DNA of 64,000 nt from Candidatus Nomurabacteria bacterium. Its GTDB lineage: Bacteria; Patescibacteriota; Patescibacteriia; HK-STAS-PATE-3. The notes under the pieces were generated by a model, which ran no database searches, was not told the DNA's origin, and saw only the letters and a list, made by a program, of their open reading frames with translations. The stretch lies in the NCBI GenBank assembly GCA_023898465.1, contig CP060223.1, forward strand, positions 256,001-320,000, in the 5' to 3' direction. Position 1 is the stretch's first letter; the number at the start of each line of letters is the position of its first letter. The translations under genes were made by a program, and so were the position numbers. Below, in pieces: positions 15,493 through 27,045 of the stretch.

Positions 15493-15498
15493 CACGAT

Positions 15499-15535
15499 AG
15501 CGGAGAAGGTTTTTCATTAGAAAGCCTTCTCCGCT
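15499..15535 (+). terminator. Hairpin terminator after the M23 gene
   Basis: 11-bp stem AGCGGAGAAGG/CCTTCTCCGCT with a weak T-rich tail. Confidence 0.45.
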
Positions 15536-15668
15536 GTCTCTCCTCTCTATGAATAGTCATGTTGCTATTCTTTCTGTTAGCGATCACCATCCTTTTAGTT
15601 GATTTAGGATTAAAACTATAATTACGTTATTCTGGAGCATTTTCTCATAATATCGTAATCTTACTACT

Positions 15669-16682
15669 ATGAATCGTTTTTCTATCTTCATCGCAGTGTT
15701 CGTTCTTATCAGCGCAGTGGTTTATGCTTTCTTTTTTGCTACATTATTTGGGGAAAAGAAAGCTATTGAAGGAGTGCAGGGACCTGCTTTTATGTTTGCA
15801 ACCCTGCCTGACTCAGATGCATCTGCCGCGATAAGCATTTTTGAGATTCCTACAATGTCGAAGCGAAAGGCTGAAGACACATCTTTGCCAATGCATTTTC
15901 TTAAAAAACTAGGAGATCCGAGAGAGTATTTTGATCCCATACTTTCTTCAAGTGGTGCATATTTGGCTTTTAATCGTAATATTGGGGAGCCGAAACAGGA
16001 TAAGACAAATTTAGTAATACTTGCAGCTGACGGAAAAGAAAGGAGCGTGGAGAGCGGCTCTGCTGGAGATATAGGAATAGGAATGCTCACGCCCTTGCAG
16101 TGGAGTGCTGATGAAAAAACGCTCTACGCTTTTTATACACACGCAACTGAAGGTAATATCGTAGGCCTGGTGGCAATTGATGTGGCAACTTTAAGCCAAC
16201 AACGAATTGAAAAAATTGATGATCTACGTGTAAGTAACTACGTCTTTGATGAAGTCGGAAATACCTACGGTTTTGAACCGCACTATCGATTCCGCCCTGA
16301 AGACGAGGCTCAAACAACCTTTTATCGAATTTCTTTGACTAGTGGCGAAACAAAAAGCTTTACACTCCAGCAATCGAGTTTGGACGATCTCTTGACCGTA
16401 GATCCAAGCGGGAGATACCTCGTGTACGCAAACGGAGATGATTTTAATTCTCGTAACATTTGGATGTATGACATGGAAACCGGTGAGGAGCGCGCGTTGA
16501 CTGAAAATGCTGTTGTTAATGAAATTTTGCCCTGGAAAGATGGATATTTGGTATTTCTGGAGGAAAGTGTAAACACCCCCGCAGAAAAAACACTTGTATC
16601 ATACGATGTAAATTCTGGCATTCGCAAAGTTCTTTTAGAAAATGTTACAGGGACGTTCCGGCTTCTTGGTTGGTATCCCTAA
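15669..16682 (+). CDS. Membrane-anchored beta-propeller-like protein (TolB/PD40-like repeats)
   Basis: 337 aa with an N-terminal TM helix. Repeated D-P-S-G-x-Y-L-(V/A)-(Y/F) type segments (LSSSGAYLAFN, DPSGRYLVYANGD...IWMYDMETGEERALT) resemble WD40-like/PD40 blades. Confidence 0.5.
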   Translation: MNRFSIFIAVFVLISAVVYAFFFATLFGEKKAIEGVQGPAFMFATLPDSDASAAISIFEIPTMSKRKAEDTSLPMHFLKKLGDPREYFDPILSSSGAYLAFNRNIGEPKQDKTNLVILAADGKERSVESGSAGDIGIGMLTPLQWSADEKTLYAFYTHATEGNIVGLVAIDVATLSQQRIEKIDDLRVSNYVFDEVGNTYGFEPHYRFRPEDEAQTTFYRISLTSGETKSFTLQQSSLDDLLTVDPSGRYLVYANGDDFNSRNIWMYDMETGEERALTENAVVNEILPWKDGYLVFLEESVNTPAEKTLVSYDVNSGIRKVLLENVTGTFRLLGWYP

Positions 16683-16940
16683 TTTCATATATCAGTTGGG
16701 AGGTTTTTATTAAACCTTGCCCCTCCCCTTAAAAAGTGGTATAGTCATTGAGCTATTCTGAATATCTCAATATTCTAGCAACCGCGTGAAAATGTCAGCA
16801 AAAACAGACATCGCGGAGGGGGAAATCACTCAAGAGCAGCACATACTCTTGTATACTCAAGCGTCCCTAGTAAAAAGGGATGTTTTTTGTGTGCAAAGTA
16901 GCCTCGTAGCTGCCACAAGTTCTGAAAGGAGCGAAGGCGC

Positions 16941-17600
16941 ATGTTAGGTTATCTTTTGCTCATTATATCGGTTGTAGAGTTTTTTATTGGCCTGTACCTT
17001 ATTTTTCGCTATGAAAAAAGCCAGGCAACAACATATTACGGTCTCTTTGCAATAAGTGTTGCGATCTATGTTGCCGCGAACGGTTTCGGATTTACCCGAG
17101 CTTCTGATAACGAGTTTATTTTTGAGCAACTTGCTTGGTTTGGCGGCTTACTTAGCGCCCCATTTATCCTTGGCTTCAGTTATAGCTTTCCTAGCCCTAA
17201 AAAATATCCCACTGAGCTATTTCCGTGGGTAATTTGGCCAGTAGTGTTATTTGGCGCAGGAATTTTTACTTCAAATATTTTCCTGGAGAAAACGTATATT
17301 TATTCCTTTGCCGAAGGCTACACTGCGCCAATCGGTGTCTTTTTCTGGTTCGCCATTGCAGTATTTGCGATGTATTGGATATGGGCAATACGAAACCTGC
17401 TGTATACGAGATTGCACACAAGCGGTTTTTATAGGAATTTTCTTACCATTGTGCTCATAGGGCTTTTTTCATCACTGCTTATTTCAGCAATTTTTGATAT
17501 TTACATTCCCTTAGTTTCAGTCACGCGCTACGGATATATTGGAGCATTATTCTCGTCTATTTGGCTGTTTACTACCGCGTATTTAATGGTGAGGAAGTAA
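16941..17600 (+). CDS. Stand-alone 7TM module, paralog 1 (histidine-kinase N-terminal 7TM-like)
   Basis: 219 aa with about 7 hydrophobic helices. Aligns by eye with the first 230 aa or so of the kinase at 23014. Ends ...TTAYLMVRK* where the kinase reads ...ISYAIIRHR and continues. Confidence 0.8.
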   Translation: MLGYLLLIISVVEFFIGLYLIFRYEKSQATTYYGLFAISVAIYVAANGFGFTRASDNEFIFEQLAWFGGLLSAPFILGFSYSFPSPKKYPTELFPWVIWPVVLFGAGIFTSNIFLEKTYIYSFAEGYTAPIGVFFWFAIAVFAMYWIWAIRNLLYTRLHTSGFYRNFLTIVLIGLFSSLLISAIFDIYIPLVSVTRYGYIGALFSSIWLFTTAYLMVRK

Positions 17601-17601
17601 G

Positions 17602-18261
17602 ATGATTGGATATATATTACTCATTATCTCAGTTGTTGAAGTAATACTCGGTTTTTATTTGATTTTTCGATATGTAAAAAGTCCAGCAACTATATATTAC
17701 GGCCTATTCGCGCTAAGTGTAGCACTCTATGTAGGTGCAAACGGGTATGGTTTTAGTCCGTTTTCAGAAAATGATATATGGCTGGAAATAATTGCCTGGA
17801 TTGGCGGGACCTTTACCGCTCCTTTTATTCTTGGCTTCAGTTACTCATTCCCTTATCCACGTAAGTCCAATAAGGAAATACTGTCTTTAGTTCTTAGTCC
17901 ACTCGTTTTTTTCTTCGTCGTAATACTTTTTTCTAATACTTTTGTAGATCATAATAGTGTTATCAGCTTTGATGAAGGATTTCAAAGACCTGTCGGGGAG
18001 TTACACTGGTTTGTATTATCAGTATTCTTTTTCTATTGGGTTTGGTCTTTTATTGAACTAGTAAAGAGTCGAAAAAAATCCGACGGCTTTAATAAGAATT
18101 TTCTTCTTATTTTAATTATAGGCTTAGTTTTTTCTTTGTTGGTTTCGGTATTTACTAACATCATTCATCCACTTGTCGATGTTTCAAAGTTAGGTTATAT
18201 GGGCCCCTTAGCCTCTTCAATCTGGCTATTTATTACTGGGTACTTGATATTGAGGAAGTAA
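17602..18261 (+). CDS. Stand-alone 7TM module, paralog 2
   Basis: 219 aa, collinear with paralog 1 (LLIISVVE..YLIFRY.KS.AT.YYGLFA, APFILGFSYSFP, SSIWLF). Starts 1 nt after the upstream stop. Confidence 0.8.
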   Translation: MIGYILLIISVVEVILGFYLIFRYVKSPATIYYGLFALSVALYVGANGYGFSPFSENDIWLEIIAWIGGTFTAPFILGFSYSFPYPRKSNKEILSLVLSPLVFFFVVILFSNTFVDHNSVISFDEGFQRPVGELHWFVLSVFFFYWVWSFIELVKSRKKSDGFNKNFLLILIIGLVFSLLVSVFTNIIHPLVDVSKLGYMGPLASSIWLFITGYLILRK

Positions 18262-18932
18262 TGAACACCTTTCATTTAGTTTTACTTTTTACACTTTTCT
18301 TTATTCACGCGACTCTCGCAATATGGATGTTGCGTAGATATGTGCAGACGCTATCCATTCGTTATTACTCAGGCTTTTTATTTGGACTAGCACTTATTGC
18401 ACTATTAAATGGTTTATTGCTGTTATTTGGCGGTCAGGAGAGTCAAACAGTCCTTCATAAGATCGGCTTTATCTCAGGCACCTTCACTTTTGTGATGTTC
18501 TTTATGTTTAGTAAGTACTTTCCAATTTCTACTGCAAGACCAAACTCCCGCGACATTCTTTTTTGGGTAATTCCGATTACATTTTTTATTCCATTCATAC
18601 TTTTTAATCAGCAGTTTATCCAGTCTGTGATTATAGAAAATGGAATAAGTAAGCCTACATTTGGAGTCTGGTATACACCATTTATGTTAGTTTTGGCCAC
18701 CTTTGTTCTGGGGGCTATCTATAATCTCATACAGAAATATAAAATAACCACTGAACTTGAAATTAGGAAGAACATTAGAGACATTACGGCAGTATTTTTC
18801 GTATCAGGACTCCTTGGCTTTTTGTTGGACGTTGTGTTGCCAAGGTTTAATGTTTATACGGCACATTACTTTGCCATTGAATCTTCACTTTTTGTTGCGC
18901 TAACTACTGCAATTATTATTGCAAAGAAGTAA
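18261..18932 (+). CDS. Stand-alone 7TM module, paralog 3 (divergent)
   Basis: 223 aa with the same helix layout. TAATG overlap with paralog 2. Ends ...AIIIAKK*. Confidence 0.75.
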   Translation: MNTFHLVLLFTLFFIHATLAIWMLRRYVQTLSIRYYSGFLFGLALIALLNGLLLLFGGQESQTVLHKIGFISGTFTFVMFFMFSKYFPISTARPNSRDILFWVIPITFFIPFILFNQQFIQSVIIENGISKPTFGVWYTPFMLVLATFVLGAIYNLIQKYKITTELEIRKNIRDITAVFFVSGLLGFLLDVVLPRFNVYTAHYFAIESSLFVALTTAIIIAKK

Positions 18933-18933
18933 G

Positions 18934-19605
18934 ATGAAAGAGTTTCTCATCATTGCAAATTATCTGGTTGGAATAGGGGAGTTGATGCTCGCTGGATATT
19001 TTTGGAAAACAAACAGCGGCAGCGCAATTCGGAAGGTGATGGTGTTGTTGGCGTTTTCGACTGGTATGTGGGTCATTTTTACCGGAACCTTTACCTACCG
19101 CTGGATTTTGCTTGATTACTTTGATCTCGGCATATCATTTGTATATTTCTTTGGAATTTTGTTCCTTACCGCCTTACTTCATTTAGTAATTCTCTTTCCT
19201 CACAAGATTTTCCCGTTTGATAGGCTACATACAGTTTTGTTGTATATTCCAACACTCATATTAGGTTTTGCCGCTTTTACTCCAGCGATAATTAAAGAAA
19301 ATATCACTCCGTCGAGCGGGTATACCACAAGTTATCCCGGACCAGCACATTGGATGTTTAATAGCTATCTTTTTCTCATGTATGCAATGGTGATAATCCT
19401 ACTCATTGTTAAGATCAAGCGTTTTGATGGATTTAGCAGAGATAACGCAAAAACTTTGCTTTGGGGTATTATTTTAGGCGGCCTACCCATCGTTTTCTTA
19501 GATTTGGTTTTGACAACTTTGGGCATCTACCCAAATGCTGCCGTTGCCAGCCTTTTCACAGTTGTCTGGCTTGGGTTTACTACTTACATAATTGTACGGA
19601 AATGA
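18934..19605 (+). CDS. Stand-alone 7TM module, paralog 4
   Basis: The ATG at 18934 lies 1 nt after the paralog 3 stop (ORF track start is 18919). Ends ...TTYIIVRK*. Confidence 0.75.
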   Translation: MKEFLIIANYLVGIGELMLAGYFWKTNSGSAIRKVMVLLAFSTGMWVIFTGTFTYRWILLDYFDLGISFVYFFGILFLTALLHLVILFPHKIFPFDRLHTVLLYIPTLILGFAAFTPAIIKENITPSSGYTTSYPGPAHWMFNSYLFLMYAMVIILLIVKIKRFDGFSRDNAKTLLWGIILGGLPIVFLDLVLTTLGIYPNAAVASLFTVVWLGFTTYIIVRK

Positions 19606-20288
19606 ACGGAGAAATAGTATTTTTTGATTTAATTTTACTTAGCGTTGTTGGATTATTAGAATTAGCCTTTGGGATTTATTTAATAGTCCGTTATGTGAGG
19701 ACAAGTTCGATAGTATTTTTTGCACTTTTCGTTTTCTTTCTTTCTTTGTGGGTGCTTACAAATGCGGCTGCTTTCGTAATACCAATACATAATGTCTTCT
19801 TTGATATTGATTCAAAGTTGAGTTTTGTTTTTGCAATATTACTTTTTCCAGCGCTATACTTATATGTAATTAATTTTCCCATCCCTACAATATTAATAAA
19901 TTGGCGTTTAATACTTTTTGTGTTTACTGCGCCAATACTTCTTAGTACAATGATTTTAGGGTCGGGAACGGTTGTATTTGGATTTGATAAATTGATAGAG
20001 AATCAGCCAACTATATTTGGAGAAGCTTTTTGGGCCTATTCTTTTTATATGTTGTTCATGTATGCAATTATTTTATTTGAATTAATAAGGCAGATTAATA
20101 AGTCCAAGGGTTCTCACAGATGGTATGCACAAATTTTATTTTTTGCTGTTTTCATTTCTGGCGCAATAGGGCTATTATTTAATCTTGTTCTGCCTTCGAT
20201 GTTCGATATTAGAATTGCTTATTGGATAGCCCCATCTAGTTCAATTATTTGGCTTGCTCTTGTTTGGTGGGCGACGCAGAGGAAATAA
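19602..20288 (+). CDS. Stand-alone 7TM module, paralog 5
   Basis: ATGA overlap with paralog 4. The ORF track start at 19461 runs inside paralog 4. Ends ...SSSIIWLALVWWATQRK*. Confidence 0.75.
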   Translation: MNGEIVFFDLILLSVVGLLELAFGIYLIVRYVRTSSIVFFALFVFFLSLWVLTNAAAFVIPIHNVFFDIDSKLSFVFAILLFPALYLYVINFPIPTILINWRLILFVFTAPILLSTMILGSGTVVFGFDKLIENQPTIFGEAFWAYSFYMLFMYAIILFELIRQINKSKGSHRWYAQILFFAVFISGAIGLLFNLVLPSMFDIRIAYWIAPSSSIIWLALVWWATQRK

Positions 20289-20290
20289 TT

Positions 20291-20959
20291 ATGGATTATG
20301 GTGTATACTTATTATTAGTTATTGCGGGCCTAGAACTTTGGTTGACAATATACATATTTACTCGCTACCAAAGAACAAAAGCTATTTTTTTCTTTGGACT
20401 CTTTACTGCTTGTGTGACTGGATGGGTGCTAACTAATTCTATTCCGCTTCTTTTTTCCTATTCAAGTTGGCAATCTGATTTTTTGCAACGCCTCTCGTTT
20501 TCTTTTGCTGCATTTATTTTTCCTTTTCTTTATTATTATATTCTTTTACATCCATTTCCAAGCATTGATATCAACAAGCGATTCATATTATTCACATCCC
20601 TCCCGGCCTTCTTTGTTTCTATTGCCACTCTCTTTGATAAAAACTTTGTTATAGGATTCTATGATACCTCAGTAAGGGCAACAATATACGGCGACTCTTT
20701 TTGGATGTATGCGGTAGTTATGTTGCTATTTGCAATTCTTATTCCTGTGGAAATAATTTTAAAAAGAAGAAGACTGGATGGATATTATCGCTACCAATTC
20801 AAATTATTATTCAGCGCCTATTTGTTTTCAGCGGCAGTAGGATTACTAATTAATTTAATATTGCCATATTTTTTCGACTTAAAAATTAACTATTGGCTTG
20901 GGCCCGCGTCATCGATTATTTGGGTGAGTATGGTTTGGTGGGTTATTAATAGAAGGTAA
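20291..20959 (+). CDS. Stand-alone 7TM module, paralog 6
   Basis: The ATG lies 2 nt after the paralog 5 stop. Closest to paralog 5 (..ASSIIWVSMVWWVINRR*). Confidence 0.75.
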   Translation: MDYGVYLLLVIAGLELWLTIYIFTRYQRTKAIFFFGLFTACVTGWVLTNSIPLLFSYSSWQSDFLQRLSFSFAAFIFPFLYYYILLHPFPSIDINKRFILFTSLPAFFVSIATLFDKNFVIGFYDTSVRATIYGDSFWMYAVVMLLFAILIPVEIILKRRRLDGYYRYQFKLLFSAYLFSAAVGLLINLILPYFFDLKINYWLGPASSIIWVSMVWWVINRR

Positions 20960-20981
20960 TGTTTAATTGCGATTTTCAAAA

Positions 20982-21641
20982 ATGACAATAGGACATGTAG
21001 TTGAAGAATTTAAAAGTCGGTATATTAAAAGACAACTAGATCATAATTTTATTGTTTTAGAGACTCAAAATAACAACCAACTAAATTTATCATATAGATT
21101 AAGATACGAAGTATATTGTCTAGAATGTAAATATTTAGACGTGAATAATTATCCCAATAGGTCTGAAAAGGATGAGTATGATGATTGTTCAATACATTTC
21201 ATCGCAATAAATAAAAAGACAAAAAATGTTGTTGGCACAATTCGACTTATTAAACGCACTAATAGGAATTTGCCAATAGAGCATGATTTTGGAATTTCTC
21301 TGAATGGATCAATTAGTTCTAAAAAAGTTGTGGAGATTTCTAGACTAGCGGTTGATAAAAAATTTAGGAAGTCGAGTTTAAAGCATCCAAGTATTATGTT
21401 AGGTTTATTAAAAGCATGCTATAGATACGCCGAAGAAAATGGAATTGCAATGTTTGTAGCGGCAATAGATCAAAATGTATATAATATGTTAAAAAAGTTT
21501 CGTTTTTCATTTAATTTATTAGGGGAACCAAAACATTATATGGGTTCAATCTCAGTACCCGTGTTAATTGATATCGAAAAAGAATCGCAGTGGTTAAAAA
21601 TAGTAAATCCTGGACTATGGACATTTCTTTCAAGCAATTAG
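20982..21641 (+). CDS. GNAT-fold N-acyl amino acid / acyl-homoserine-lactone-synthase-like acyltransferase (FeeM / PEP-CTERM-associated acyltransferase-like)
   Basis: LSYRLRYEVYCLECKYLD, IHFIAI...VVGTIRLI, VVEISRLAVDKKFR and MFVAAID follow the pattern I recall for the LuxI-related Acetyltransf_5/N-acyl amino acid synthase family. The ORF track starts at the TTG at 20967; the ATG at 20982 is preferred. Confidence 0.55.
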   Translation: MTIGHVVEEFKSRYIKRQLDHNFIVLETQNNNQLNLSYRLRYEVYCLECKYLDVNNYPNRSEKDEYDDCSIHFIAINKKTKNVVGTIRLIKRTNRNLPIEHDFGISLNGSISSKKVVEISRLAVDKKFRKSSLKHPSIMLGLLKACYRYAEENGIAMFVAAIDQNVYNMLKKFRFSFNLLGEPKHYMGSISVPVLIDIEKESQWLKIVNPGLWTFLSSN

Positions 21642-22276
21642 CTCATAAAATTGTATTATTCTATTTAAGACGGGCTAGCCACAAAAAATACCTAACATTT
21701 AGCTTTAGCGATCTTATTATACTCTGTCCCCCAAACGTGTTCCCGCCTAATTCGTTTACCACTGACCTAATGGCTAAGTGGCTAGTAAACGAAGAGATGG
21801 AAGGTAAACAGGTTTTAGAGATGGGTTGTGGAAGTGGATACATTTCGATTATTGCCGCACGAAAAGGGGCAAAAGTAATTGCAAGCGACATCAGCCCTAT
21901 CGCGGTTGATGCCGCAAAAATCAATACCATAATAAATAAGATAAAAAATGTCGAATGTTATTGCTCGGACTTATTTTCTAACTTAGAAGGAAAGTTTGAT
22001 TTAATTCTCTTCAACGCACCTTTTTTTCATGGAGAACCCACTTCTTTATTAGATAACAATTGGATGAGTAAGGATGGGGAGGTGGTCAGTAAATTTTTTA
22101 AAGACGCAAGAGAATATATTAATCCAATGGGGAAGGTAGTTATTACTAGTTCGACTCTAGTTAATCAAGATGCTCTGAAAATATTAATTAAAGAAAGCGG
22201 ATTTAATATTGAAAACGTGAAAACAAAAAATATTATTATTGAAAAATTTTTCTTGTATGAATGTAGAGCTTTTTAA
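21617..22276 (+). CDS. Class I SAM-dependent methyltransferase (HemK/PrmC-like amino-methyltransferase pattern)
   Basis: Motif I is VLEMGCGSGYISI, the acidic loop is ASDIS, and motif IV is FNAPFF (an NPPY-like variant). The start is ambiguous (GTG at 21590 or ATG at 21617) and overlaps the upstream gene. Confidence 0.7.
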   Translation: MDISFKQLAHKIVLFYLRRASHKKYLTFSFSDLIILCPPNVFPPNSFTTDLMAKWLVNEEMEGKQVLEMGCGSGYISIIAARKGAKVIASDISPIAVDAAKINTIINKIKNVECYCSDLFSNLEGKFDLILFNAPFFHGEPTSLLDNNWMSKDGEVVSKFFKDAREYINPMGKVVITSSTLVNQDALKILIKESGFNIENVKTKNIIIEKFFLYECRAF

Positions 22277-23021
22277 TAGAAATCAACCATTTATAACTAA
22301 AAAAGAACAAAAAATTCTCACAAAACAGAAAGTTTGTTTTATTGGATGTGGTCTTGCAAGTCAAGCCGCACTCCTTATTGCCAGGACAGGTATTGGAAAA
22401 ATAGTACTTTGTGATGGAGACAAGGTCGAGTTGAGTAATCTTAACAGGCAAGCATTTGACATTGGTGATATTGGAGAAAACAAAGCAGAAAGCTTAATGA
22501 GAAAGATATTAAGCATCAATTCAAATATTGAAGTGGAGCAGTATCCGGTTTTTTTAAAAAAATCGATTATTTCAAATGTAATAAAAGATTCAGATATTGT
22601 AGTGAGCACAGTTGATGCGGGTCCTTTATATTTTGAAATTCAGGAATATATTAATAAAAAAGGCATTATGGGAATATTCCCCATGAATATTGCCTTTGGA
22701 TCACTCGTATTCGTATCAAAAAATGGAAAGGGTGATTTTAAATCGTTATTTGGGGAGAAATTACCTGAAAATAATTCTGAATTTTTTTATCAACTTTACA
22801 ATAAACTTAAACAAAATGTACCAAGCTATTTATCTCCTCATATTGAAATCTTATTAAGTGGATTTAAAACAAACAGTCCAATTCCACAGCTAGGATTAAC
22901 GACTTTACTTACCGCATCTTTGATTACTGAGATAATACTGGCTGGGAACAGGGCTGAGCAATTATTGTTAACTCCAAGATTCTATTATTTTGATATTCGT
23001 GAATTCGTTCGAAATGGATAA
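22257..23021 (+). CDS. ThiF/MoeB/HesA-family E1-like adenylyltransferase
   Basis: KVCFIGCGLASQAALLIARTGIGKIVLCDGDKVELSNLNRQ carries the canonical ThiF nucleotide-binding signature. The protein is about 254 aa with no rhodanese or CxxC tail. It overlaps both neighbours. Confidence 0.75.
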   Translation: MNVELFNRNQPFITKKEQKILTKQKVCFIGCGLASQAALLIARTGIGKIVLCDGDKVELSNLNRQAFDIGDIGENKAESLMRKILSINSNIEVEQYPVFLKKSIISNVIKDSDIVVSTVDAGPLYFEIQEYINKKGIMGIFPMNIAFGSLVFVSKNGKGDFKSLFGEKLPENNSEFFYQLYNKLKQNVPSYLSPHIEILLSGFKTNSPIPQLGLTTLLTASLITEIILAGNRAEQLLLTPRFYYFDIREFVRNG

Positions 23022-25785
23022 ATTGCTAATCCCACAAAATTTAGCACTTATTATATTGCTCTTCGGATATTTAAGTCTGATAATTCTTCTTTTGAGACGC
23101 GAGAACACAAGTAGTAGATTATTTGGTGCTACCGTTATTACTCTCTCTCTTTGGATATTATCAATTTTACTTTTAAATATCAGCTCCTCAAAAGAAGAAA
23201 TTTTATTCTTTTCGCGATCGTCATTTATCGGGCCAATTATTCTCATACCAACATTCCTTCTTTTTTCTTGGTATTTTCCGAAAAAAACTATACATCTAAG
23301 GAAAAGTATTATTATTGTCGTTTCTTTAACGGCATGCTTCTTTTTAATTGCGACGTTTACGCCGTATGTAATTCAAGATGTCACAATAAAAGTAGGTGAA
23401 GGAGTCAGTCTAACCTATCAACTTGGAACACTATATTTTTTCCAATTTATTTTTTTAGCATTCTCATTACTTTATTCTTTTTTTATTCTTTATAAAAAAT
23501 ATAAAAAATCAAAAGGCCTAGAAAAATTACAAATTAGATATCTTTTTCTTGGCACCGTTATTACTGCAGTATTGACCTTGAGTACTAACGTAATTTTACC
23601 AATTTTTAATTTTTCATCTCTTGCTGGATTTGGCCCTCTTAGTACTCTATTTCTCTTATTTTTTATTTCATATGCCATCATCCGCCACCGCCTCCTCGAC
23701 ATCCGTCTTGTTATCACGCGTTCCTTAATTTATTTTTTCCTTATCCTGTTCGTCGCAGGATCATTTACTGGAATTACCTTACTCGCAAAGTTATTATTTG
23801 AAGAATTTGTTGGTGAAATAACCGCTACAATACTTGTTTCTCTCATCATCGTTATTGGTTTCGAGCCATTGAAGCGATGGGTCTCTCGTTCTACTGACTC
23901 GGTTTTTTATAAGGCAAAAATTGACTACGCTGATGTGTTGCGGGAAATCAGCGAAATTATTAACCGTGAAATTGTCCTGGATCCGCTCGTCACCTCCATC
24001 AGCGCCACGCTTGAGAGTAGGCTCAAGCTCAAGCACGCGGGCATTGCATTGAAAAGCGCCAAGGGGGATTTTGTTGAATACATAAACCACGATCACTTTG
24101 ATCCCAAAACCTTTTCCAGCCGATCCGGTATGATCGGATTCTTACGTTTCACATCTCGTATCACCATTTTAGAATCGCTCGAGCGCAAAATTCAGGACAC
24201 GAGCGAAGGGGACGAATTAAAAGAGTTGAAGCGATCGCGCGAGGAAATGGAAACGAACCACATTGCCTTAGCTGCTCCGATTGTGGCGCAAGGCAAATTC
24301 AACGCAGTCCTCATCCTGGGGCCGAAACTTTCCGGTGATAGCTTCTCGACCGAAGAGTTGAAGATGATTGAAACGTTGACTCCGCAGATCGGATCAGCGA
24401 TTGAGAAATCCATGCTCTTCGAAGAGGTGAAGAACTTCTCCAGTCAATTAAAGGTGAAAGTTGATGAGGCGACAAAGGAGTTGAAAGAGCGCAATCGTTT
24501 CCTTGGCGCTTTGCAGGATATCACGAGCACCATTACGCACTCTCTTGATTACAAAAAAGTAGGACAGGACATTGTGGACGGAGTAGCCAAGAAGCTCGGT
24601 TACATCGGTGCCGTGCTCCTGCTCTATGATCCAAAGACTGGCCAGTCATGGGCTGAGGCAATTACGCAAACGCCGGTTACTCGCGCGGCAATGAAATTAC
24701 TGCCCAAGCCGGTGAACGAATACCATGGGCACGTGGATGAGAATTCCATGACCGACCAAGTTATTTTGACTGGTGAAATGCGCGAAAGTGATTCACTAGC
24801 TGAATTCTTAGCACCGGCCGTGCCTAAAGCTTTTTGTTTCGCCATGCAGAAGTTGATTCGCGCAAAGTATATTGTGGCAGTGCCAATCTATGCCGAGGGT
24901 GAAATTCTCGGTGCCTTGGTTTTTGTGCTCGGGAAGAAGAAAGAGGAGATCAGTAGTCAGGAGCGGGCTATGATGATCGCTTTAGGTGACCAGGCCGGAA
25001 TCGTGCTGCACAATATTAAACTCTTTGATCGCATCCAGGATACGAATAAGCAGTTGGAGCAGGCGAATGAACACTTGAAGCAGCTTGATCAAGCTAAGTC
25101 GGAATTCGTCTCCATTGCCTCGCACCAATTACGCACGCCGATGACTGGCATTATGGGCTATCTTTCCATGATGGTGCAGGGGGATTTCGGTAAAATGGAG
25201 CCGGAGCACACCAAACTGCTGACTGAATTGTTGAGTGAGAGTCAGCGCATGATTCGTCTCATCAACCTCTTCTTGAACGTCTCAAAGATTGAGTCAGGTA
25301 AGATGACGATTAACAAGCAGCCGACGCAGATTAAGGATCTCATTGACCAACAGATTAAGGATCAGAAAAAGCCAGCCGAGGATAAAGGATTGGTGCTGAA
25401 AGTGGAAGTTGATAAAGAGCTGCCGATAATTGAAGCTGACGGTGATAAGCTCATGAACGTGGTGCAGAACCTGATTGATAACGCTATCAAATATACAGAG
25501 CGGGGAAGCGTGACTGTTCGCGCCTTTCAGACCGATGGCCATATCCAGGTAGAAATTCAAGACACTGGCGTTGGTATTAAGCGCGAAGATGTGCATGAAC
25601 TCTTTGGTAAGTTTGTGCGCGGGTCTGGCATTGCGCAGATCAATCCTGATGGCTCCGGTCTCGGACTCTTTATTGCCAAGTCAATTGTGGAAATGCACGG
25701 CGGTAAGATTTGGGTAGAATCAGAAGGTGAAGGGAAAGGTACTAAATTCGCATTCACGATACCAATTACACAGCCGAAAAAATGA
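23014..25785 (+). CDS. Sensor histidine kinase: N-terminal 7TM module + GAF-like regions + HisKA + HATPase_c
   Basis: About 230 aa of 7TM region, then long soluble GAF-like regions. H-box FVSIASHQLRTPMT, N-box NLIDNAIKYT, G-boxes DTGVGI and GSGLGL. The ATG at 23014 overlaps the ThiF stop by 8 nt. Confidence 0.9.
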   Translation: MDKLLIPQNLALIILLFGYLSLIILLLRRENTSSRLFGATVITLSLWILSILLLNISSSKEEILFFSRSSFIGPIILIPTFLLFSWYFPKKTIHLRKSIIIVVSLTACFFLIATFTPYVIQDVTIKVGEGVSLTYQLGTLYFFQFIFLAFSLLYSFFILYKKYKKSKGLEKLQIRYLFLGTVITAVLTLSTNVILPIFNFSSLAGFGPLSTLFLLFFISYAIIRHRLLDIRLVITRSLIYFFLILFVAGSFTGITLLAKLLFEEFVGEITATILVSLIIVIGFEPLKRWVSRSTDSVFYKAKIDYADVLREISEIINREIVLDPLVTSISATLESRLKLKHAGIALKSAKGDFVEYINHDHFDPKTFSSRSGMIGFLRFTSRITILESLERKIQDTSEGDELKELKRSREEMETNHIALAAPIVAQGKFNAVLILGPKLSGDSFSTEELKMIETLTPQIGSAIEKSMLFEEVKNFSSQLKVKVDEATKELKERNRFLGALQDITSTITHSLDYKKVGQDIVDGVAKKLGYIGAVLLLYDPKTGQSWAEAITQTPVTRAAMKLLPKPVNEYHGHVDENSMTDQVILTGEMRESDSLAEFLAPAVPKAFCFAMQKLIRAKYIVAVPIYAEGEILGALVFVLGKKKEEISSQERAMMIALGDQAGIVLHNIKLFDRIQDTNKQLEQANEHLKQLDQAKSEFVSIASHQLRTPMTGIMGYLSMMVQGDFGKMEPEHTKLLTELLSESQRMIRLINLFLNVSKIESGKMTINKQPTQIKDLIDQQIKDQKKPAEDKGLVLKVEVDKELPIIEADGDKLMNVVQNLIDNAIKYTERGSVTVRAFQTDGHIQVEIQDTGVGIKREDVHELFGKFVRGSGIAQINPDGSGLGLFIAKSIVEMHGGKIWVESEGEGKGTKFAFTIPITQPKK

Positions 25786-26216
25786 AACAGGTAAGGGGGA
25801 AACAACCAAAACGCATCCTACTTGTCGAGGACGAGCCGCTCTTAGCAACGATGTATATGTTGGCGTTGCAGCAACGAGTAAAGGCTGAGGTGTACGGGGC
25901 TAAGACACGCGAAGAAGCGGAGCGCATTATTGAGCGTGTGAAGCCGGATTTAGTGCTGCTTGATCTCATGATTCCCTCGATTACCATCCAAGACACGGAG
26001 CAGGATTTTCATCATCCAGTAGGGCTGCAATTCTTAGCCCAAATTCGGAAGAGTCCAAAGACGCGTTCAATCAAGGTAATGATTCTCTCCAACCTTGATG
26101 CGGATGAGCAACGCAAGCGGGCCATTGATTTAGGTGCCGAGGATTACCTATTAAAAGCCAGTCTGCAGCCGCACGCGATTGTGGAAAAGGTAAAGCATAG
26201 TTTAGGGATAAAATAA
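25782..26216 (+). CDS. Stand-alone response-regulator receiver (CheY-like) protein
   Basis: ILLVEDEP, DLVLLDLMIP and a lysine in ..LLKAS. There is no output domain. ATGA overlap with the kinase stop. Confidence 0.85.
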   Translation: MKQVRGKQPKRILLVEDEPLLATMYMLALQQRVKAEVYGAKTREEAERIIERVKPDLVLLDLMIPSITIQDTEQDFHHPVGLQFLAQIRKSPKTRSIKVMILSNLDADEQRKRAIDLGAEDYLLKASLQPHAIVEKVKHSLGIK

Positions 26217-26333
26217 GCCAGTCAATAATCTCATCCTTGACAGAGCCGGTGGTTTTTGTATACTTTCTGGCCCTGTTCTTTCCCATCGCGAATATCGGCA
26301 ACGGCCTCATTCTTAACATGTTTGGGAGGCCGT

Positions 26334-26531
26334 ATGTCGATTGCGTTTACTCCCACTGAGCTTATTCTCCTCGGAGGATTTCTCGTCTGGATCATGGCCC
26401 AAATCTATGCTCCAATGAAAGGTCGCCGCAAAGCTGTCAGCTTCGGCGCCATCGAGATTGTCTTCCTGCTCGTGGGTCTCGCGGTATTGCTCCTCGGAGC
26501 AATCACCCTTGCACAGAATCCTGCCTTCTAG
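26334..26531 (+). CDS. Small two-TM membrane protein, hypothetical
   Basis: 65 aa from an ATG with GGGAGG 5 nt upstream. Preceded by TTGACA-N16-TATACT (26236-26263). The ORF track start at 26256 is less likely. Confidence 0.5.
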   Translation: MSIAFTPTELILLGGFLVWIMAQIYAPMKGRRKAVSFGAIEIVFLLVGLAVLLLGAITLAQNPAF

Positions 26532-26547
26532 GCGGGATTCTTTTTTT
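26516..26547 (+). terminator. Rho-independent terminator
   Basis: GAATCCTGCC / GGCGGGATTC stem followed by TTTTTTT. Confidence 0.7.
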
Positions 26548-26568
26548 AAAAGATGCTAGAGTATAGCT

Positions 26569-27003
26569 ATGAAAAATATTTTTCCAAAAGGGGTCGAGGT
26601 AGTAGCGGGGGTAATAATATTCCATAAAGGGAAGATTCTGATTGCACGCTCACCGAAGTGGTCAGATAAATGGACATTGCCGGGCGGCCATATTGATCCC
26701 GGAGAAACAATTGCAGAGGCGGCTATGCGAGAAGCGGAAGAAGAGACGGGCTTAAAGGTTCATCCACTTGGTTTTGTGAAAGCAGGTGAACTTATTTATT
26801 CAAAGGATTTTCACCGGCCTGCGCATTTTCTCTATTTTGATTATGCTGTTGAAGCAGATGATGGTAATGCAACACTTGATAAGCGCGAATTAACGGAAAT
26901 GCAATGGTGTTCTCCAAAAGAAGCGCTCCAGATGGACTTAGCAGAAAGTTTTTCTGAATCAATCCAAGCTTTTTTAGAAAAGTTTCCGCAATACGCCGGG
27001 TAG
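26569..27003 (+). CDS. NUDIX hydrolase
   Basis: Nudix box GGHIDPGETIAEAAMREAEEETGL. Confidence 0.85.
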   Translation: MKNIFPKGVEVVAGVIIFHKGKILIARSPKWSDKWTLPGGHIDPGETIAEAAMREAEEETGLKVHPLGFVKAGELIYSKDFHRPAHFLYFDYAVEADDGNATLDKRELTEMQWCSPKEALQMDLAESFSESIQAFLEKFPQYAG

Positions 27004-27045
27004 TGCTGCTTTTCTGAAGCGCGAAAAAATGGTATAGTAGGGCGC

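What the first reader, a model, noticed from the sequence alone, without database searches (positions are those of the whole stretch)
20982..23021. Compact three-enzyme set embedded between sensor array and kinase: LuxI/FeeM-like acyl synthase, amino-methyltransferase-like enzyme, ThiF/E1-like adenylase
Three overlapping genes follow the array. The first has the sequence pattern of the GNAT-fold N-acyl amino acid / autoinducer-synthase-related family (RLRYEVYC.E..Y, EISRLAV). The second is a class I SAM methyltransferase with an NPPY-like FNAPFF motif, as seen in N-methylating HemK/PrmC-type enzymes. The third is a minimal ThiF-family carboxylate-adenylating enzyme (GCG..S, DxDxVxxSNLNRQ). Together they could build a modified N-acyl amino acid or small peptide derivative. 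Placement directly upstream of a sensor kinase suggests a self-produced signal. No ThiS/MoaD-like GG-terminated carrier ORF is apparent nearby, so the ThiF-like enzyme is probably not doing sulfur-carrier chemistry.
Basis: partly seen in the sequence, partly recalled or inferred. Interest (0 to 1): 0.7.

Follow-up and report, generated by a model that had tools for sequence, protein, structure and literature searches.

The report
Acyl-amino-acid signal cassette with sensor kinase
A tiny-genome (candidate phyla radiation) bacterium carries an imported operon whose three enzymes most likely build a methylated, ring-closed fatty-acyl amino acid, and the operon brings its own membrane sensor, so it looks like a self-made chemical signal wired to its receptor.

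Summary
Window 20982-23021 holds three overlapping genes. They encode a LuxI/FeeM-fold N-acyl amino acid synthase (NAS), a HemK2/Mtq2-type N-methyltransferase and a 254-aa ThiF-like adenylating enzyme. A HisKA_7TM histidine kinase and a receiver-only regulator follow.

The ThiF belongs to a distinct ~250-aa family. One member, AclA of Tenacibaculum discolor (PDB 9EGB, 2025), has been crystallised with a substrate.

I examined 47 non-redundant family loci. A NAS lies within 5 kb in 31, and a GH3-type amido synthetase in 3. A receptor gene is nearby in 42: a LuxR-type regulator in Bacteroidota, a histidine kinase elsewhere. A NAS-ThiF fusion protein exists.

The methyltransferase is not a conserved orthologue. 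However, unrelated methyltransferases recur beside or fused to these NAS genes.

The characterised precedent is the oxazolone pathway OxzAB/TyzABC. There NAS makes an N-acyl amino acid and ThiF cyclises it using ATP. The desaturase of that pathway is absent here.

The enzymes, six kinase-less 7TM paralogues and only the 7TM domain of the kinase share foreign low GC3 (0.22-0.43, against about 0.55). This implies that synthase and sensor were acquired together.

Verdict: a new variant of a known kind, probably a signal-and-receptor module. The product is unknown.

The parts
16941..17600 (+). 7TM paralogue 1 (219 aa), kinase-less HisKA_7TM-like membrane protein
   Evidence: PF16927 HisKA_7TM 34.6 bits. 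53% identical to paralogue 2. About 6-7 hydrophobic segments. GC3 0.40.
17602..18261 (+). 7TM paralogue 2 (219 aa)
   Evidence: 29% identical to the kinase's 7TM domain, E 3e-13. HisKA_7TM hit on record. GC3 0.31.
18261..18932 (+). 7TM paralogue 3 (223 aa), divergent
   Evidence: Weak but consistent BLAST links to paralogues 5 and 6 and to the kinase 7TM (E 6e-6 to 7e-4). GC3 0.36.
18985..19605 (+). 7TM paralogue 4 (206 aa by the contig's gene call; an upstream TTG at 18919 is possible)
   Evidence: Links to paralogues 5 and 2 (E about 1e-7 to 1e-6). Gene call. GC3 0.43.
19602..20288 (+). 7TM paralogue 5 (228 aa)
   Evidence: 39% identical to paralogue 6. Matches the 7TM part of the L010 478-aa protein. 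GC3 0.28.
20291..20959 (+). 7TM paralogue 6 (222 aa)
   Evidence: 39% identical to paralogue 5 and 28% to paralogue 2. GC3 0.32.
20982..21641 (+). N-acyl amino acid synthase (NAS), LuxI/FeeM fold, 219 aa
   Evidence: FeeM, Acetyltransf_5 and Autoind_synth all above Pfam cut-offs. TIGR03694 139.6 bits against a cut-off of 111.95. AF2 model pLDDT 94; nearest folds are BjaI, RpaI, TofI, LasI and FeeM. Family invariants R41, D64, D67, R88, E118, S120, R121. GC3 0.22.
21617..22276 (+). HemK2/Mtq2-type class I SAM-dependent N-methyltransferase, 219 aa; motif I LEMGCGSG, motif IV FNAPFF
   Evidence: MTS 70.9 bits; TIGR00537 108.8 bits against a cut-off of 87. Best solved relatives are N-methyltransferases (GenN, RsmC, PrmA). 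Nearest homologues (31-38% identity) carry FNAPYL or FNPPY[LVI]. GC3 0.33.
22257..23021 (+). AclA-family ThiF-like carboxylate-adenylating enzyme or cyclase, 254 aa
   Evidence: PF00899 102 bits. The family profile matches PDB 9egb (AclA) at E 1.8e-94. AF2 model pLDDT 91; top Foldseek hit 9egb with TM 0.85. Family invariants R8, N9, GxGxxS, DxDxVExSNLNRQ, K76, P210, Q211, P240. No CxxC motif. GC3 0.24.
23014..23823 (+). 7TM sensor domain (residues 1-270) of the histidine kinase, with foreign composition
   Evidence: PF16927 59.2 bits. GC3 0.26 against 0.56 for the rest of the gene. Best match is the 7TM of the kinase next to NAS-ThiF in L088 (36.5% over 189 aa, E 1e-29).
23824..25785 (+). Cytoplasmic part of the histidine kinase: two GAF regions, HisKA, HATPase_c, with native composition
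   Evidence: Pfam hits. GC3 0.56.
25782..26216 (+). Receiver-only response regulator (144 aa)
   Evidence: PF00072 59.7 bits with no output domain. Single-domain regulators of 122-134 aa also follow the kinases in L002/L018, L006/L089, L010 and L088.
16859..16885 (+). Terminator-like hairpin upstream of the gene string (weak evidence)
   Evidence: 10-bp stem followed by a T run. The total count of such sites does not exceed shuffled controls.
26515..26541 (+). Terminator-like hairpin downstream of the gene string (weak evidence)
   Evidence: 12-bp stem, 6 GC pairs, T7 tail.

Best explanation
The gene string 16941-26216 is one operon-like cassette that both makes and senses a small acylated amino-acid derivative.

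Proposed steps, with their status:
1. Inferred from family: the NAS transfers a fatty acyl group from acyl-ACP or acyl-CoA to the alpha-amino group of an amino acid.
2. Inferred from precedent and family: the AclA-family ThiF-like enzyme uses ATP to adenylate the free carboxylate. An internal nucleophile then closes a ring. This could be the amide oxygen, giving a 5(4H)-oxazolone as in OxzB and TyzB, or a side-chain N or O, giving an imide, lactam or lactone. The order of steps 1 and 2 is not known.
3. Inferred: the HemK2-type methyltransferase N-methylates the amino-acid part. This decoration is specific to this lineage.
4. Inferred from conserved linkage and co-inheritance: the product is released. 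It is detected in the membrane by the HisKA_7TM domain of the adjacent kinase, which signals through the receiver-only regulator. The six kinase-less 7TM paralogues would bind, tune or compete for the same class of ligand.

Shown here: the gene identities, the operon-like overlaps, the cross-phylum NAS-ThiF-receptor linkage, the NAS-ThiF fusion, and the shared foreign composition of the enzymes and the sensor domain.

Not shown: the amino acid, the acyl chain, the ring type, secretion, and ligand-receptor binding.
For: Start and stop codons overlap for NAS/MTase, MTase/ThiF and ThiF/kinase.

Linkage across the family:
- One search covers 44 ThiF representatives, non-redundant at 90% identity or less. 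A NAS lies within 5 kb in 28, a LuxR-type regulator in 32, and a histidine kinase in 7.
- In five of those seven the kinase directly follows the NAS-ThiF or ThiF-GH3 unit. In L018 a second kinase lies upstream on the opposite strand. In L092 the kinase and a 448-aa regulator lie upstream of the ThiF.
- A GH3-type amido synthetase takes the place of the NAS in three of the 44 (L089, L018, L008; Pfam GH3_M and GH3_C).
- Three further kinase-linked loci were retrieved separately: L171, L172 and L173. That gives 47 loci in total.
- Only 5 of the 47 have none of these partners, and 2 of those 5 are contig fragments.

The rest of the neighbourhood is not conserved. Among 134 other neighbours within 3.5 kb, no Pfam family recurs in more than 3 loci. 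The conserved unit is therefore receptor + NAS + ThiF.

Closest relatives:
- L088: NAS-ThiF-7TM kinase, then a regulator further on.
- L171 (Patescibacteria): NAS-ThiF-7TM/GAF kinase.
- L010 (Gammaproteobacteria): acyl-AMP ligase, 7TM protein, NAS, ThiF, 7TM/GAF kinase, regulator, alpha/beta hydrolase, AI-2E family transporter.

Fusion proteins among the top NAS relatives:
- P0099 is a NAS-ThiF fusion. Its ThiF part is 33% identical to the window enzyme over the full length.
- P0088, P0092, P0123 and P0139 are methyltransferase-NAS fusions.
- L173 has a NodS-type methyltransferase beside ThiF-NAS-kinase.

FeeM-type NAS and GH3 amido synthetases are non-homologous. Both make N-acyl amino acids (established knowledge of the two families). 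Their interchange beside the same ThiF points to an N-acyl amino acid intermediate.

Biochemical precedent: OxzA/OxzB and TyzA/TyzB make an N-acyl amino acid and then perform an ATP-dependent ThiF-type cyclisation to an oxazolone (PMC10404671; bioRxiv 10.1101/2020.06.11.147165; review PMC12596934).

Co-inheritance of synthase and sensor: GC3 is 0.22 for the NAS, 0.24 for ThiF, 0.33 for the MTase, 0.26 for the kinase 7TM domain and 0.28-0.43 for the array. It is 0.56 for the kinase core and 0.54 for the regulator. The window's 7TM domain is most similar to the 7TM domains of kinases that sit next to other NAS-ThiF pairs. A neighbour-joining tree separates a kinase-linked ThiF clade, which includes the window, from a LuxR-linked Bacteroidota clade that contains AclA.
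Against: - No product is known for any close relative that I could read about. I could not retrieve the paper behind AclA (9EGB), so the family's real substrate may differ from an N-acyl amino acid.
- Adjacent regulators are also common in ordinary biosynthetic clusters, so linkage to a receptor does not prove autoinduction.
- The desaturase that stabilises the known oxazolones is absent. A saturated 5(4H)-oxazolone is hydrolytically labile (chemical knowledge), so the ring type is uncertain.
- The methyltransferase is not conserved with the pair, and its nearest relatives are archaeal housekeeping genes.
- Low GC in the membrane genes is partly expected from hydrophobic codon usage. The soluble enzymes show it too, however.
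- The window operon has no exporter gene.
- The neighbour-joining tree is rough and has no support values.
Confidence: 0.55

Rival explanations
1. The enzymes are the same, but the purpose differs. The product would be a membrane lipid, surfactant or antimicrobial N-acyl amino acid derivative, like the tyrazolones, stieleriacines or FeeM products. The kinase or LuxR genes would be ordinary cluster-situated regulators that respond to some other cue and do not bind the product.
For: - The characterised relatives (Tyz, Oxz, stieleriacines) have no demonstrated signalling role. Tyrazolone was found in cell pellets (PMC10404671).
- PAS-LuxR and two-component regulators are frequent inside biosynthetic clusters.
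- Bacteroidota triads often sit beside radical-SAM, LanC-like and C39-ABC exporter genes.
Against: - The conserved unit is only receptor + NAS + ThiF, with variable flanks. This is the architecture of synthase and receptor pairs, not of a larger cluster.
- Receptor type tracks ThiF phylogeny.
- In the window only the sensor domain of the kinase shares the cassette's foreign composition.
- The 7TM domain has been amplified six-fold beside the enzymes.
Confidence: 0.25
2. The ThiF-like enzyme is an E1- or MccB-like enzyme acting on a ribosomal peptide or protein C-terminus. The target could be an unannotated short precursor or the Arg/Lys-terminated 7TM proteins. The GNAT and the methyltransferase would decorate that peptide, making this a RiPP-like system.
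For: - Most characterised secondary-metabolism ThiF-like enzymes act on peptides: MccB, PaaA, GrcB, EnfB, IndF (PMC12596934).
- PaaA and MccB are among the top structural neighbours.
- Some Bacteroidota loci neighbour RiPP machinery.
Against: - The enzyme has no RRE or peptide-clamp extension. It is 254 aa, against about 350 aa for MccB and PaaA.
- No GG-ending or other conserved short ORF was found.
- The conserved partner is a NAS or GH3 small-molecule acylating enzyme, and a NAS-ThiF fusion exists.
- The flanking RiPP genes are not conserved with the module.
Confidence: 0.08
3. The NAS is a true LuxI-type synthase that makes an acyl-homoserine lactone from SAM. ThiF and the methyltransferase would be accessory or unrelated.
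For: - Autoind_synth scores above the Pfam cut-off (47.3 against 24).
- The best structural neighbours are AHL synthases.
- Counterparts of LuxI-family conserved Arg, Asp, Glu and Arg positions are invariant (R41, D64, D67, R88, E118, R121). The mapping to LuxI numbering is from memory and was not tested.
Against: - NCBIfam AHL-synthase equivalogs score 44 and 40 bits against cut-offs of 250 and 292.
- FeeM and TIGR03694 score higher.
- A LuxI enzyme lactonises by itself. It would not need an obligately linked or fused ATP-dependent carboxylate activator.
- GH3 amido synthetases replace the NAS in three loci.
Confidence: 0.05
4. The methyltransferase is not part of the pathway. It would be a translation-factor or ribosomal glutamine/lysine methyltransferase that landed in the operon by chance.
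For: - Nearest relatives (31-38% identity) include archaeal genes next to KsgA, Pus10, L21e and Rpb4, and sources annotate several as release-factor glutamine methyltransferases.
- It is absent from every other ThiF-anchored locus. L088 and L171 have NAS directly abutting ThiF.
Against: - It overlaps both neighbours and has cassette-like GC3 of 0.33.
- Unrelated methyltransferases are fused to, or adjacent to, homologous NAS genes. This argues that methylation is a recurrent tailoring step.
- A bacterium would normally use PrmC, not an Mtq2-type enzyme (established knowledge). The PrmC equivalog scores 68.8 against a cut-off of 199.
Confidence: 0.15

Closest known systems
AclA of Tenacibaculum discolor (PDB 9EGB, 9EGC, 9EGD; released 2025-08-13) and its ~250-aa ThiF-like family
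   Same: - The window enzyme has the same family length and domain layout. The profile built from the window enzyme and its relatives hits AclA at E 1.8e-94 over the whole chain.
- The AF2 model superposes on AclA with TM 0.85.
- The family invariants are shared, including the C-terminal P-Q motif.
- Close relatives of AclA (66% identity) sit next to a homologous NAS gene.
   Different: - Identity to the window enzyme is only about 25-28%.
- AclA lies in the LuxR-linked Bacteroidota clade. The window enzyme lies in the kinase-linked clade.
- The Bacteroidota triads have no methyltransferase and no 7TM array.
- I could not read the AclA publication, so its substrate and product are unknown to me.
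Oxazolone synthetases OxzAB (Pseudoalteromonas rubra), TyzABC and TrzAS (Mycobacterium tuberculosis)
   Same: - A LuxI/FeeM-fold N-acyl amino acid synthase is encoded next to a ThiF-type enzyme that activates the carboxylate with ATP and cyclises the N-acyl amino acid (PMC10404671, PMC12856293, bioRxiv 10.1101/2020.06.11.147165).
- The substrate is a small molecule.
- No GG-terminated carrier protein is involved.
   Different: - Those systems always include a nitroreductase-superfamily desaturase, either fused (OxzB, TrzS) or separate (TyzC). None is present here or recurrent in the family.
- The window ThiF scores far below the Rv1355c-family model (56.7 against 476).
- No receptor linkage has been reported for those systems.
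Stieleriacine-type clusters (Stieleria neptunia and S. maiorica): NAS + methyltransferase + ThiF + nitroreductase
   Same: The enzyme combination NAS + methyltransferase + ThiF lies in one locus and is proposed to make methylated N-acyl (dehydro)tyrosines (PMC12479983).
   Different: - Those methyltransferases are O- or C-methyltransferases of other families (an SfmM2-like enzyme is named for S. maiorica). The one here is a HemK2/MTS-type N-methyltransferase.
- A nitroreductase is present there and absent here.
- No kinase or LuxR coupling is described there.
LuxI/LuxR acyl-homoserine-lactone quorum sensing
   Same: - The synthase fold is the same.
- The logic is the same: a synthase gene sits next to its receptor gene, and the signal is an acylated, ring-closed amino-acid derivative.
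- In Bacteroidota the neighbouring receptor is a LuxR-family (GerE HTH) protein.
   Different: - The synthase fails the AHL-synthase equivalog models.
- Ring closure would need a separate ATP-dependent ThiF enzyme.
- The LuxR-type partners showed only the GerE domain in Pfam, with no autoinducer-binding domain hit.
- In the window the receptor is a 7TM histidine kinase.
TIGR03694 PEP-CTERM/exosortase system-associated acyltransferase
   Same: The window NAS scores 139.6 bits, above the curated cut-off of 111.95. Its close relative P0067 and the NAS-ThiF fusion P0099 also pass.
   Different: - No exosortase or PEP-CTERM context appears in the 18 kb annotated around the locus.
- The adjacent kinase does not match PrsK TIGR02916.
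- The model's name probably does not describe this subgroup.
HemK2/Mtq2 (N6AMT1) glutamine-N5 protein methyltransferases
   Same: - TIGR00537 scores above its cut-off.
- The Rossmann motif I is present, and so is an N-x-P-[YF] motif IV. The window has NAPF; homologues have NAPY or NPPY.
   Different: - The gene is embedded by overlaps in a biosynthetic operon of a bacterium.
- Identity to the archaeal housekeeping genes is only 31-38%.
- The substrate is presumed to be a small molecule. This was not tested.

Membership tests
FeeM / Acetyltransf_5 N-acyl amino acid synthases (LuxI-like GNAT fold) | Profile score above the curated cut-off | tested here: met
   PF21926 58 bits against 27. PF13444 55.5 bits against 22.4.
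FeeM / Acetyltransf_5 N-acyl amino acid synthases (LuxI-like GNAT fold) | LuxI/FeeM three-layer alpha/beta/alpha fold | tested here: met
   AF2 model with pLDDT 94. Top PDB neighbours are BjaI, RpaI, TofI, FeeM and LasI, with TM 0.64-0.70.
FeeM / Acetyltransf_5 N-acyl amino acid synthases (LuxI-like GNAT fold) | Acyl-ACP- or acyl-CoA-dependent N-acylation of an amino acid | not testable with these tools
   This needs an enzyme assay.
LuxI-type AHL synthase | Score above the equivalog cut-off of the AHL-synthase models | tested here: not met
   NF052393 44.3 bits against 250. NF010408 40.3 bits against 292. Only the broad Pfam Autoind_synth model passes (47.3 against 24).
TIGR03694 PEP-CTERM/exosortase-associated acyltransferase | HMM score above the curated cut-off | tested here: met
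   139.6 bits against 111.95.
TIGR03694 PEP-CTERM/exosortase-associated acyltransferase | Occurrence with exosortase/PEP-CTERM genes and the PrsK/PrsR regulators | tested here: inconclusive
   No such Pfam families appear in the 18 kb around the locus. The kinase sensor part does not hit TIGR02916. The rest of the genome was not available.
HemK2/Mtq2 family methyltransferase | TIGR00537 score above cut-off, SAM motif I, and an NPPY-type motif IV | tested here: met
   108.8 bits against 87. LEMGCGSG is present. FNAPFF aligns with FNAPYL or FNPPY[LVI] of homologues, and N133 and P135 are invariant.
PrmC (bacterial release-factor methyltransferase) | TIGR03534 equivalog score | tested here: not met
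   68.8 bits against 199.1.
ThiF/MoeB sulfur-carrier adenylyltransferases | Equivalog score above cut-off | tested here: not met
   NF006395 98.8 against 159. TIGR02356 87.4 against 275. TIGR02355 52.7 against 377.
ThiF/MoeB sulfur-carrier adenylyltransferases | A nearby ThiS/MoaD-like carrier ending in Gly-Gly | tested here: not met
   No ORF of 40-130 aa ending in GG exists in the 64-kb window.
ThiF/MoeB sulfur-carrier adenylyltransferases | Zinc-binding CxxC pairs or a catalytic Cys in the C-terminal half | tested here: not met
   The only cysteines are at positions 27, 31 and 52.
AclA-like ~250-aa ThiF family | Full-length homology to AclA and shared family invariants | tested here: met
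   The family profile matches 9egb at E 1.8e-94 over profile positions 4-253. The structural TM-score is 0.85. Invariants are R8, N9, G30, G32, S35, D53 through Q65, K76, P210, Q211 and P240.
AclA-like ~250-aa ThiF family | Adjacent homologous NAS gene and adjacent receptor gene | tested here: met
   The window has NAS-MTase-ThiF-kinase. Across the family, a NAS lies within 5 kb in 31 of 47 loci and a receptor gene in 42 of 47.
AclA-like ~250-aa ThiF family | Same substrate and product as AclA | not testable with these tools
   The ligand of 9EGB and its publication could not be retrieved.
Oxazolone synthetase (OxzAB / TyzABC / TrzAS) | NAS and ThiF-type cyclase encoded together | tested here: met
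Oxazolone synthetase (OxzAB / TyzABC / TrzAS) | Nitroreductase-superfamily (FDO) desaturase, fused or adjacent | tested here: not met
   No nitroreductase family appears in the 18 kb around the locus. None is among the recurrent neighbours of 44 family loci. The ThiF is single-domain.
Oxazolone synthetase (OxzAB / TyzABC / TrzAS) | Membership of the Rv1355c-family model | tested here: not met
   NF005901 56.7 bits against 476.
HisKA_7TM sensor histidine kinase | N-terminal PF16927 domain plus HisKA and HATPase_c | tested here: met
   59.2, 58.2 and 101 bits, all above cut-offs.

The most novel reading that the evidence does not exclude
A candidate-phyla-radiation bacterium, with a genome of about 1 Mb, may run a private chemical communication circuit.

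- A plug-in cassette would encode the synthesis of a new N-methylated, ring-closed acyl amino acid. This would be an ATP/ThiF-made analogue of acyl-homoserine lactones.
- The cassette would also carry the cognate 7TM ligand-binding domain, grafted in frame onto a resident kinase core.
- Six kinase-less copies of that sensor domain would act as co-receptors, decoys or sinks.

More broadly, NAS + AclA-type ThiF + receptor would be a widespread family of autoinducer systems. The receptor would be LuxR-type in Bacteroidota and a histidine kinase in Patescibacteria, Chloroflexota and Gammaproteobacteria. To my knowledge this has not been described. If so, it could account for LuxI-less quorum sensing in Bacteroidota.
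Probability: 0.3. Interest if true: 0.8.

Novelty: new variant of a known kind. Interest (0 to 1): 0.6.

Why it matters
Until recently, ThiF-like enzymes acting on small molecules were known only from the oxazolone synthetases (PMC12596934).

This locus belongs to a separate and widespread NAS + ThiF family. That family lacks the desaturase. In nearly all loci examined it is encoded next to a receptor, either a LuxR-type regulator or a histidine kinase.

If the product is a signal, three things would follow:
- It would define a new chemical class of autoinducer and a new ligand class for the uncharacterised HisKA_7TM sensor domain.
- It would give a concrete, testable case of cell-cell or host-directed signalling in CPR/Patescibacteria, whose biology is mostly inferred.
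- It would show a sensor domain and its signal synthase moving together as one unit.

If the product is instead a lipid or an antibiotic, the locus is still a compact three-gene target for discovering a new methylated acyl-amino-acid heterocycle.

Tried and rejected
- **Exact-sequence look-ups.** Look-ups with the mechanical TTG start of ThiF and the ATG start of the NAS found nothing. The ATG form of ThiF found the source contig.
- **Homologue search for the NAS.** The word-indexed search returned only the query itself. The exhaustive representative search was needed.
- **Literature.** Searches for TIGR03694, HisKA_7TM, ThiF + LuxR, 9EGB and AclA + Tenacibaculum found nothing relevant. The AclA paper was not retrieved. 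The 2025 ThiF review and the tryptazolone paper do not mention it.
- **Anti-phage defence.** PADLOC gave only generic E1-domain and methyltransferase similarities. I rejected this reading.
- **PrsK/PEP-CTERM regulatory system.** The kinase sensor region does not match TIGR02916. I rejected this reading.
- **Sulfur-carrier or ubiquitin-like chemistry.** There is no GG-ending ORF, no CxxC motif, and all equivalog scores are below cut-off. I rejected this reading.
- **RNA elements.** No Rfam family matched in 15000-27500.
- **Promoter and terminator scans.** Counts did not exceed shuffled controls. Only the two strongest hairpins are mentioned, and only as weak evidence.
- **NCBIfam name for AclA-like ThiF or the Bacteroidota NAS.** None exists.
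- **Not done.** I ran no fold search against AFDB.

Full report
**1. What is in the sequence**

Window 16941-26216 is an uninterrupted string of eleven + strand genes:
- six ~220-aa polytopic membrane proteins (16941-20959);
- a 219-aa acyltransferase (20982-21641);
- a 219-aa methyltransferase (21617-22276);
- a 254-aa ThiF-like protein (22257-23021);
- a 923-aa histidine kinase (23014-25785);
- a 144-aa receiver-only response regulator (25782-26216).

The acyltransferase, methyltransferase, ThiF and kinase genes overlap by 25, 20 and 8 nt. The kinase and regulator also overlap.

The ThiF sequence is on record as 'ThiF family adenylyltransferase [Candidatus Nomurabacteria bacterium]' on a 1,082,586-bp contig. 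The host is therefore a CPR/Patescibacteria organism.

No ORF of 40-130 aa ending in Gly-Gly exists in the whole window.

**2. Identity of the three enzymes**

*Enzyme 1, the N-acyl amino acid synthase (NAS).*
- It passes the curated thresholds of FeeM, Acetyltransf_5, Autoind_synth and TIGR03694.
- It fails the AHL-synthase equivalogs (44 bits against 250).
- An AlphaFold model (pLDDT 94) is closest to the AHL synthases BjaI, RpaI, TofI and LasI and to FeeM.
- It is therefore a LuxI/FeeM-fold NAS, not a ribosomal-protein or aminoglycoside acetyltransferase.

*Enzyme 2, the methyltransferase.*
- It passes MTS and the HemK2/MTQ2 model TIGR00537.
- Its best solved relatives are N-methyltransferases: GenN, RsmC and PrmA.
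- Its FNAPFF motif aligns with FNAPYL or FNPPY[LVI] of homologues.
- Those homologues are only 31-38% identical. Where context was read, they are archaeal housekeeping genes next to KsgA, Pus10, L21e and Rpb4.

*Enzyme 3, the ThiF-like protein.*
- It passes only the general ThiF Pfam model. It is below every ThiF, MoeB, TcdA and Rv1355c equivalog cut-off.
- It has no CxxC pairs.

**3. The ThiF belongs to a distinct family with a solved member**

Full-length relatives of 250-285 aa and 24-39% identity form a coherent family. Its invariants are R8, N9, GxGxxS, DxDxVExSNLNRQ, K76, a C-terminal P-Q pair and P240.

A profile of this family hits PDB 9egb, 9egc and 9egd at E 1.8e-94 over the whole chain. 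The AlphaFold model of the window protein (pLDDT 91) has 9egb as its top structural match, with TM 0.85. That entry is titled 'AclA from Tenacibaculum discolor in complex with substrate' and was released on 2025-08-13. PaaA, ThiF and MccB follow.

I could not find the publication in the library. The identity of the AclA substrate remains unknown to me.

**4. Conserved gene context**

I retrieved 160 loci with the family profile from species-representative genomes and from metagenomes. I then called ORFs, built HMMs and removed ThiF sequences more than 90% identical. This left 44 non-redundant loci with a full-length family member.

Within 5 kb of the ThiF gene in these 44 loci:
- a homologue of the window NAS is present in 28;
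- a ~250-aa LuxR-family (GerE HTH) regulator is present in 32, usually divergently transcribed;
- a histidine kinase is present in 7;
- a GH3-type amido synthetase replaces the NAS in 3. L008 has the GH3_M, GH3_C and GH3 N-terminal domains.

Three further kinase-linked loci came from exact look-ups:
- L171 (Patescibacteria): NAS-ThiF-7TM/GAF kinase.
- L172: ThiF-NAS-PAS kinase.
- L173: NodS-type methyltransferase, ThiF, NAS, HisKA_7TM kinase.

That brings the total to 47 loci. A NAS is present in 31 of them and a receptor gene in 42. Only five have none of these partners, and two of those five are short contigs.

Among 134 other neighbours within 3.5 kb, no Pfam family recurs in more than three loci. 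No nitroreductase is among the recurrent ones. The conserved unit is therefore receptor + NAS (or GH3) + ThiF.

A rough neighbour-joining tree gives two clades. One is kinase-linked and includes the window, L088, L008, L089, L018, L010 and a fusion protein. The other is LuxR-linked, comes from Bacteroidota and contains AclA.

The closest relative, L088 (39-41% identity), has the NAS directly abutting ThiF, followed by a 7TM kinase and further on a receiver-only regulator.

**5. Fusions**

An exhaustive search with the NAS against 1.84 billion representative proteins gave 2,411 relatives at E of 1e-3 or better, and six at 1e-30 or better.

Among the top 150:
- P0099 is a NAS-ThiF fusion. Its ThiF half is 33% identical to the window enzyme over the full length and carries the family hallmarks.
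- P0088, P0092, P0123 and P0139 are methyltransferase-NAS fusions.

No homologue of the HemK2-like methyltransferase occurs in any other ThiF-anchored locus. All three activities are nonetheless repeatedly coupled, with methylation supplied by unrelated methyltransferases.

**6. Mechanistic precedent**

NAS + ThiF pathways have been reconstituted.
- OxzA or TyzA makes an N-acyl-Tyr or N-acyl-Phe. A nitroreductase-superfamily oxidase desaturates it. The ThiF-type enzyme (the OxzB domain, or TyzB) cyclises it with ATP to an acyl-oxazolone (bioRxiv 10.1101/2020.06.11.147165; PMC10404671; PMC12856293; review PMC12596934).
- Stieleria clusters combine NAS, methyltransferase, ThiF and nitroreductase (PMC12479983).

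FeeM-type NAS and GH3 amido synthetases are non-homologous routes to N-acyl amino acids (established family knowledge). Their interchange beside the same ThiF family argues that an N-acyl amino acid is the common intermediate. This is an inference.

I therefore propose the following sequence:
- N-acylation by the NAS;
- ThiF-catalysed adenylation of the carboxylate;
- intramolecular ring closure;
- N-methylation by the HemK2-type enzyme.

The ring type is open because the stabilising desaturase is absent. Candidates are:
- a saturated oxazolone;
- a cyclic imide or lactam formed through a side-chain nitrogen, by analogy with MccB, PaaA and EnfB;
- a lactone.

The HemK2 family's natural target is a glutamine side-chain amide. 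That makes an N-acyl-Gln or N-acyl-Asn-derived imide an attractive possibility, but it is untested.

**7. Link to the sensor**

GC3 values:

| Gene or region | GC3 |
|---|---|
| NAS | 0.22 |
| ThiF | 0.24 |
| Methyltransferase | 0.33 |
| Six 7TM genes | 0.28-0.43 |
| Kinase residues 1-270 | 0.26 |
| Rest of the kinase | 0.56 |
| Response regulator | 0.54 |
| P-type ATPase and AsnRS downstream | 0.50 |
| Two genes upstream of the cassette | 0.56-0.62 |

The step in GC lies at about 23,600-23,900.

The kinase is thus a compositional chimera. Its 7TM sensor domain belongs with the enzymes.

That domain is most similar to the 7TM domains of kinases next to other NAS-ThiF pairs. The matches are L088 at 36.5% with E 1e-29, then L010 and L018. 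It is also homologous to all six upstream paralogues.

Taken with section 4, this is the best available evidence that the product is the ligand of the sensor. It remains circumstantial.

L010 adds three relevant genes around the same core: an acyl-AMP ligase upstream, and an alpha/beta hydrolase and an AI-2E-family transporter downstream.

**8. Alternatives**

The main rival is that the product is a lipid or antimicrobial and that the regulators are ordinary cluster regulators. Peptide-directed (RiPP or E1-like) chemistry, a true AHL synthase, and an unrelated housekeeping methyltransferase are each less likely, for the reasons given under rivals. Defence-system, PrsK/PEP-CTERM and sulfur-carrier readings were tested and rejected.

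**9. Verdict**

The enzymology belongs to a known kind: a NAS plus a ThiF-like cyclase, with a crystallised family member. The locus is a new variant in five respects:
- it has no desaturase;
- it has a HemK2-type N-methyltransferase of archaeal affinity;
- it is coupled to a HisKA_7TM kinase;
- the sensor domain is amplified six-fold;
- the host is a CPR bacterium.

The cross-phylum NAS-ThiF-receptor module was not described in anything I could read. It is the most interesting lead.

Noticed in passing
window 16941-20959: Six tandem kinase-less paralogues of the kinase's HisKA_7TM sensor domain. Pairs 1/2 are 53% identical and pairs 5/6 are 39% identical. All end just after the last hydrophobic segment with R/K residues. 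Their role (co-receptor, decoy or transporter) is unknown. L010 also has a stand-alone 7TM-containing 478-aa protein directly upstream of its NAS.
   Followed up: partly
window 23014-25785 (boundary at about 23,600-23,900): The histidine kinase gene is a compositional chimera. The 7TM domain has GC3 0.26 and the GAF-HisKA-HATPase part has 0.56. This suggests in-frame replacement of the sensor module of a resident kinase by the imported cassette.
   Followed up: partly
window 26569-27003; L088 2964-4559; L002 5876-6319: NUDIX hydrolase genes recur near the kinase-linked NAS/GH3-ThiF loci. In L088 the gene is fused to an S-adenosylhomocysteine-hydrolase-like NAD domain and sits between the kinase and the regulator. 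This could be coincidence, or a nucleotide or adenylate housekeeping function.
   Followed up: no
window 14794-15492; L171 3465-4223; L006 3045-3743: A Peptidase_M23 gene lies a few kb upstream of the ThiF locus in three different CPR-like genomes. This hints at conserved synteny of the insertion site.
   Followed up: no
L029, L031, L032, L033, L068, L096, L097 (about 7100-12400 in each): ThiF sequences that fall in a single >90%-identity group, each in a LuxR-NAS-ThiF triad, occur in contigs assigned to different Bacteroidota genera (Allomuricauda, Cyclobacterium, Flagellimonas, Kriegella) and in TARA metagenomes. They sit beside an HTH_17 excisionase-like gene and an ATPase-like gene (resemblance judged by eye, not tested). 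Integrase and RteC families recur among neighbours. The module appears to ride on mobile elements.
   Followed up: partly
L015 12444-13823; L028 11128-12351; L049 10977-12461; L096 14904-17102: Bacteroidota triads are often next to radical-SAM, LanC-like and C39-peptidase ABC exporter genes. This would fit regulation of peptide natural-product or bacteriocin clusters by the module.
   Followed up: partly
window 21617-22276: The public annotation of the methyltransferase is a 168-aa 'DUF2431 domain-containing protein' (P0055). It starts at an internal Met and removes the conserved V41/P44 region. The 219-aa form fits the homologues.
   Followed up: yes
L010 6068-7741 and 13352-15274: The gammaproteobacterial version of the locus adds an AMP-binding acyl ligase upstream, and an alpha/beta hydrolase and an AI-2E family transporter downstream. 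These would be candidate acyl supply, turnover and export functions.
   Followed up: partly
L004/L009 about 8000-8771 (Gammaproteobacteria RIFCSPHIGHO2_12_FULL_35_23) and L090 (Opitutales): Two family members have no NAS, GH3 or receptor neighbour. The gammaproteobacterial one sits among Cucumopine_C-like, NAD_binding_9 and AsnC-regulator genes next to a leucine-biosynthesis-like set. These members may have a different substrate.
   Followed up: no
window 40001-46000 and 12001-14000: Two further stretches have lower GC (0.41-0.42) than the window average of about 0.49. The first includes ORFs of 1175 aa and 514 aa. I did not examine them.
   Followed up: no
window 26256-26531: A 91-aa hydrophobic ORF lies between the response regulator and the strong terminator-like hairpin at 26515-26541. 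It is called as a 65-aa gene on the source contig. It has no family hit and may belong to the operon.
   Followed up: no
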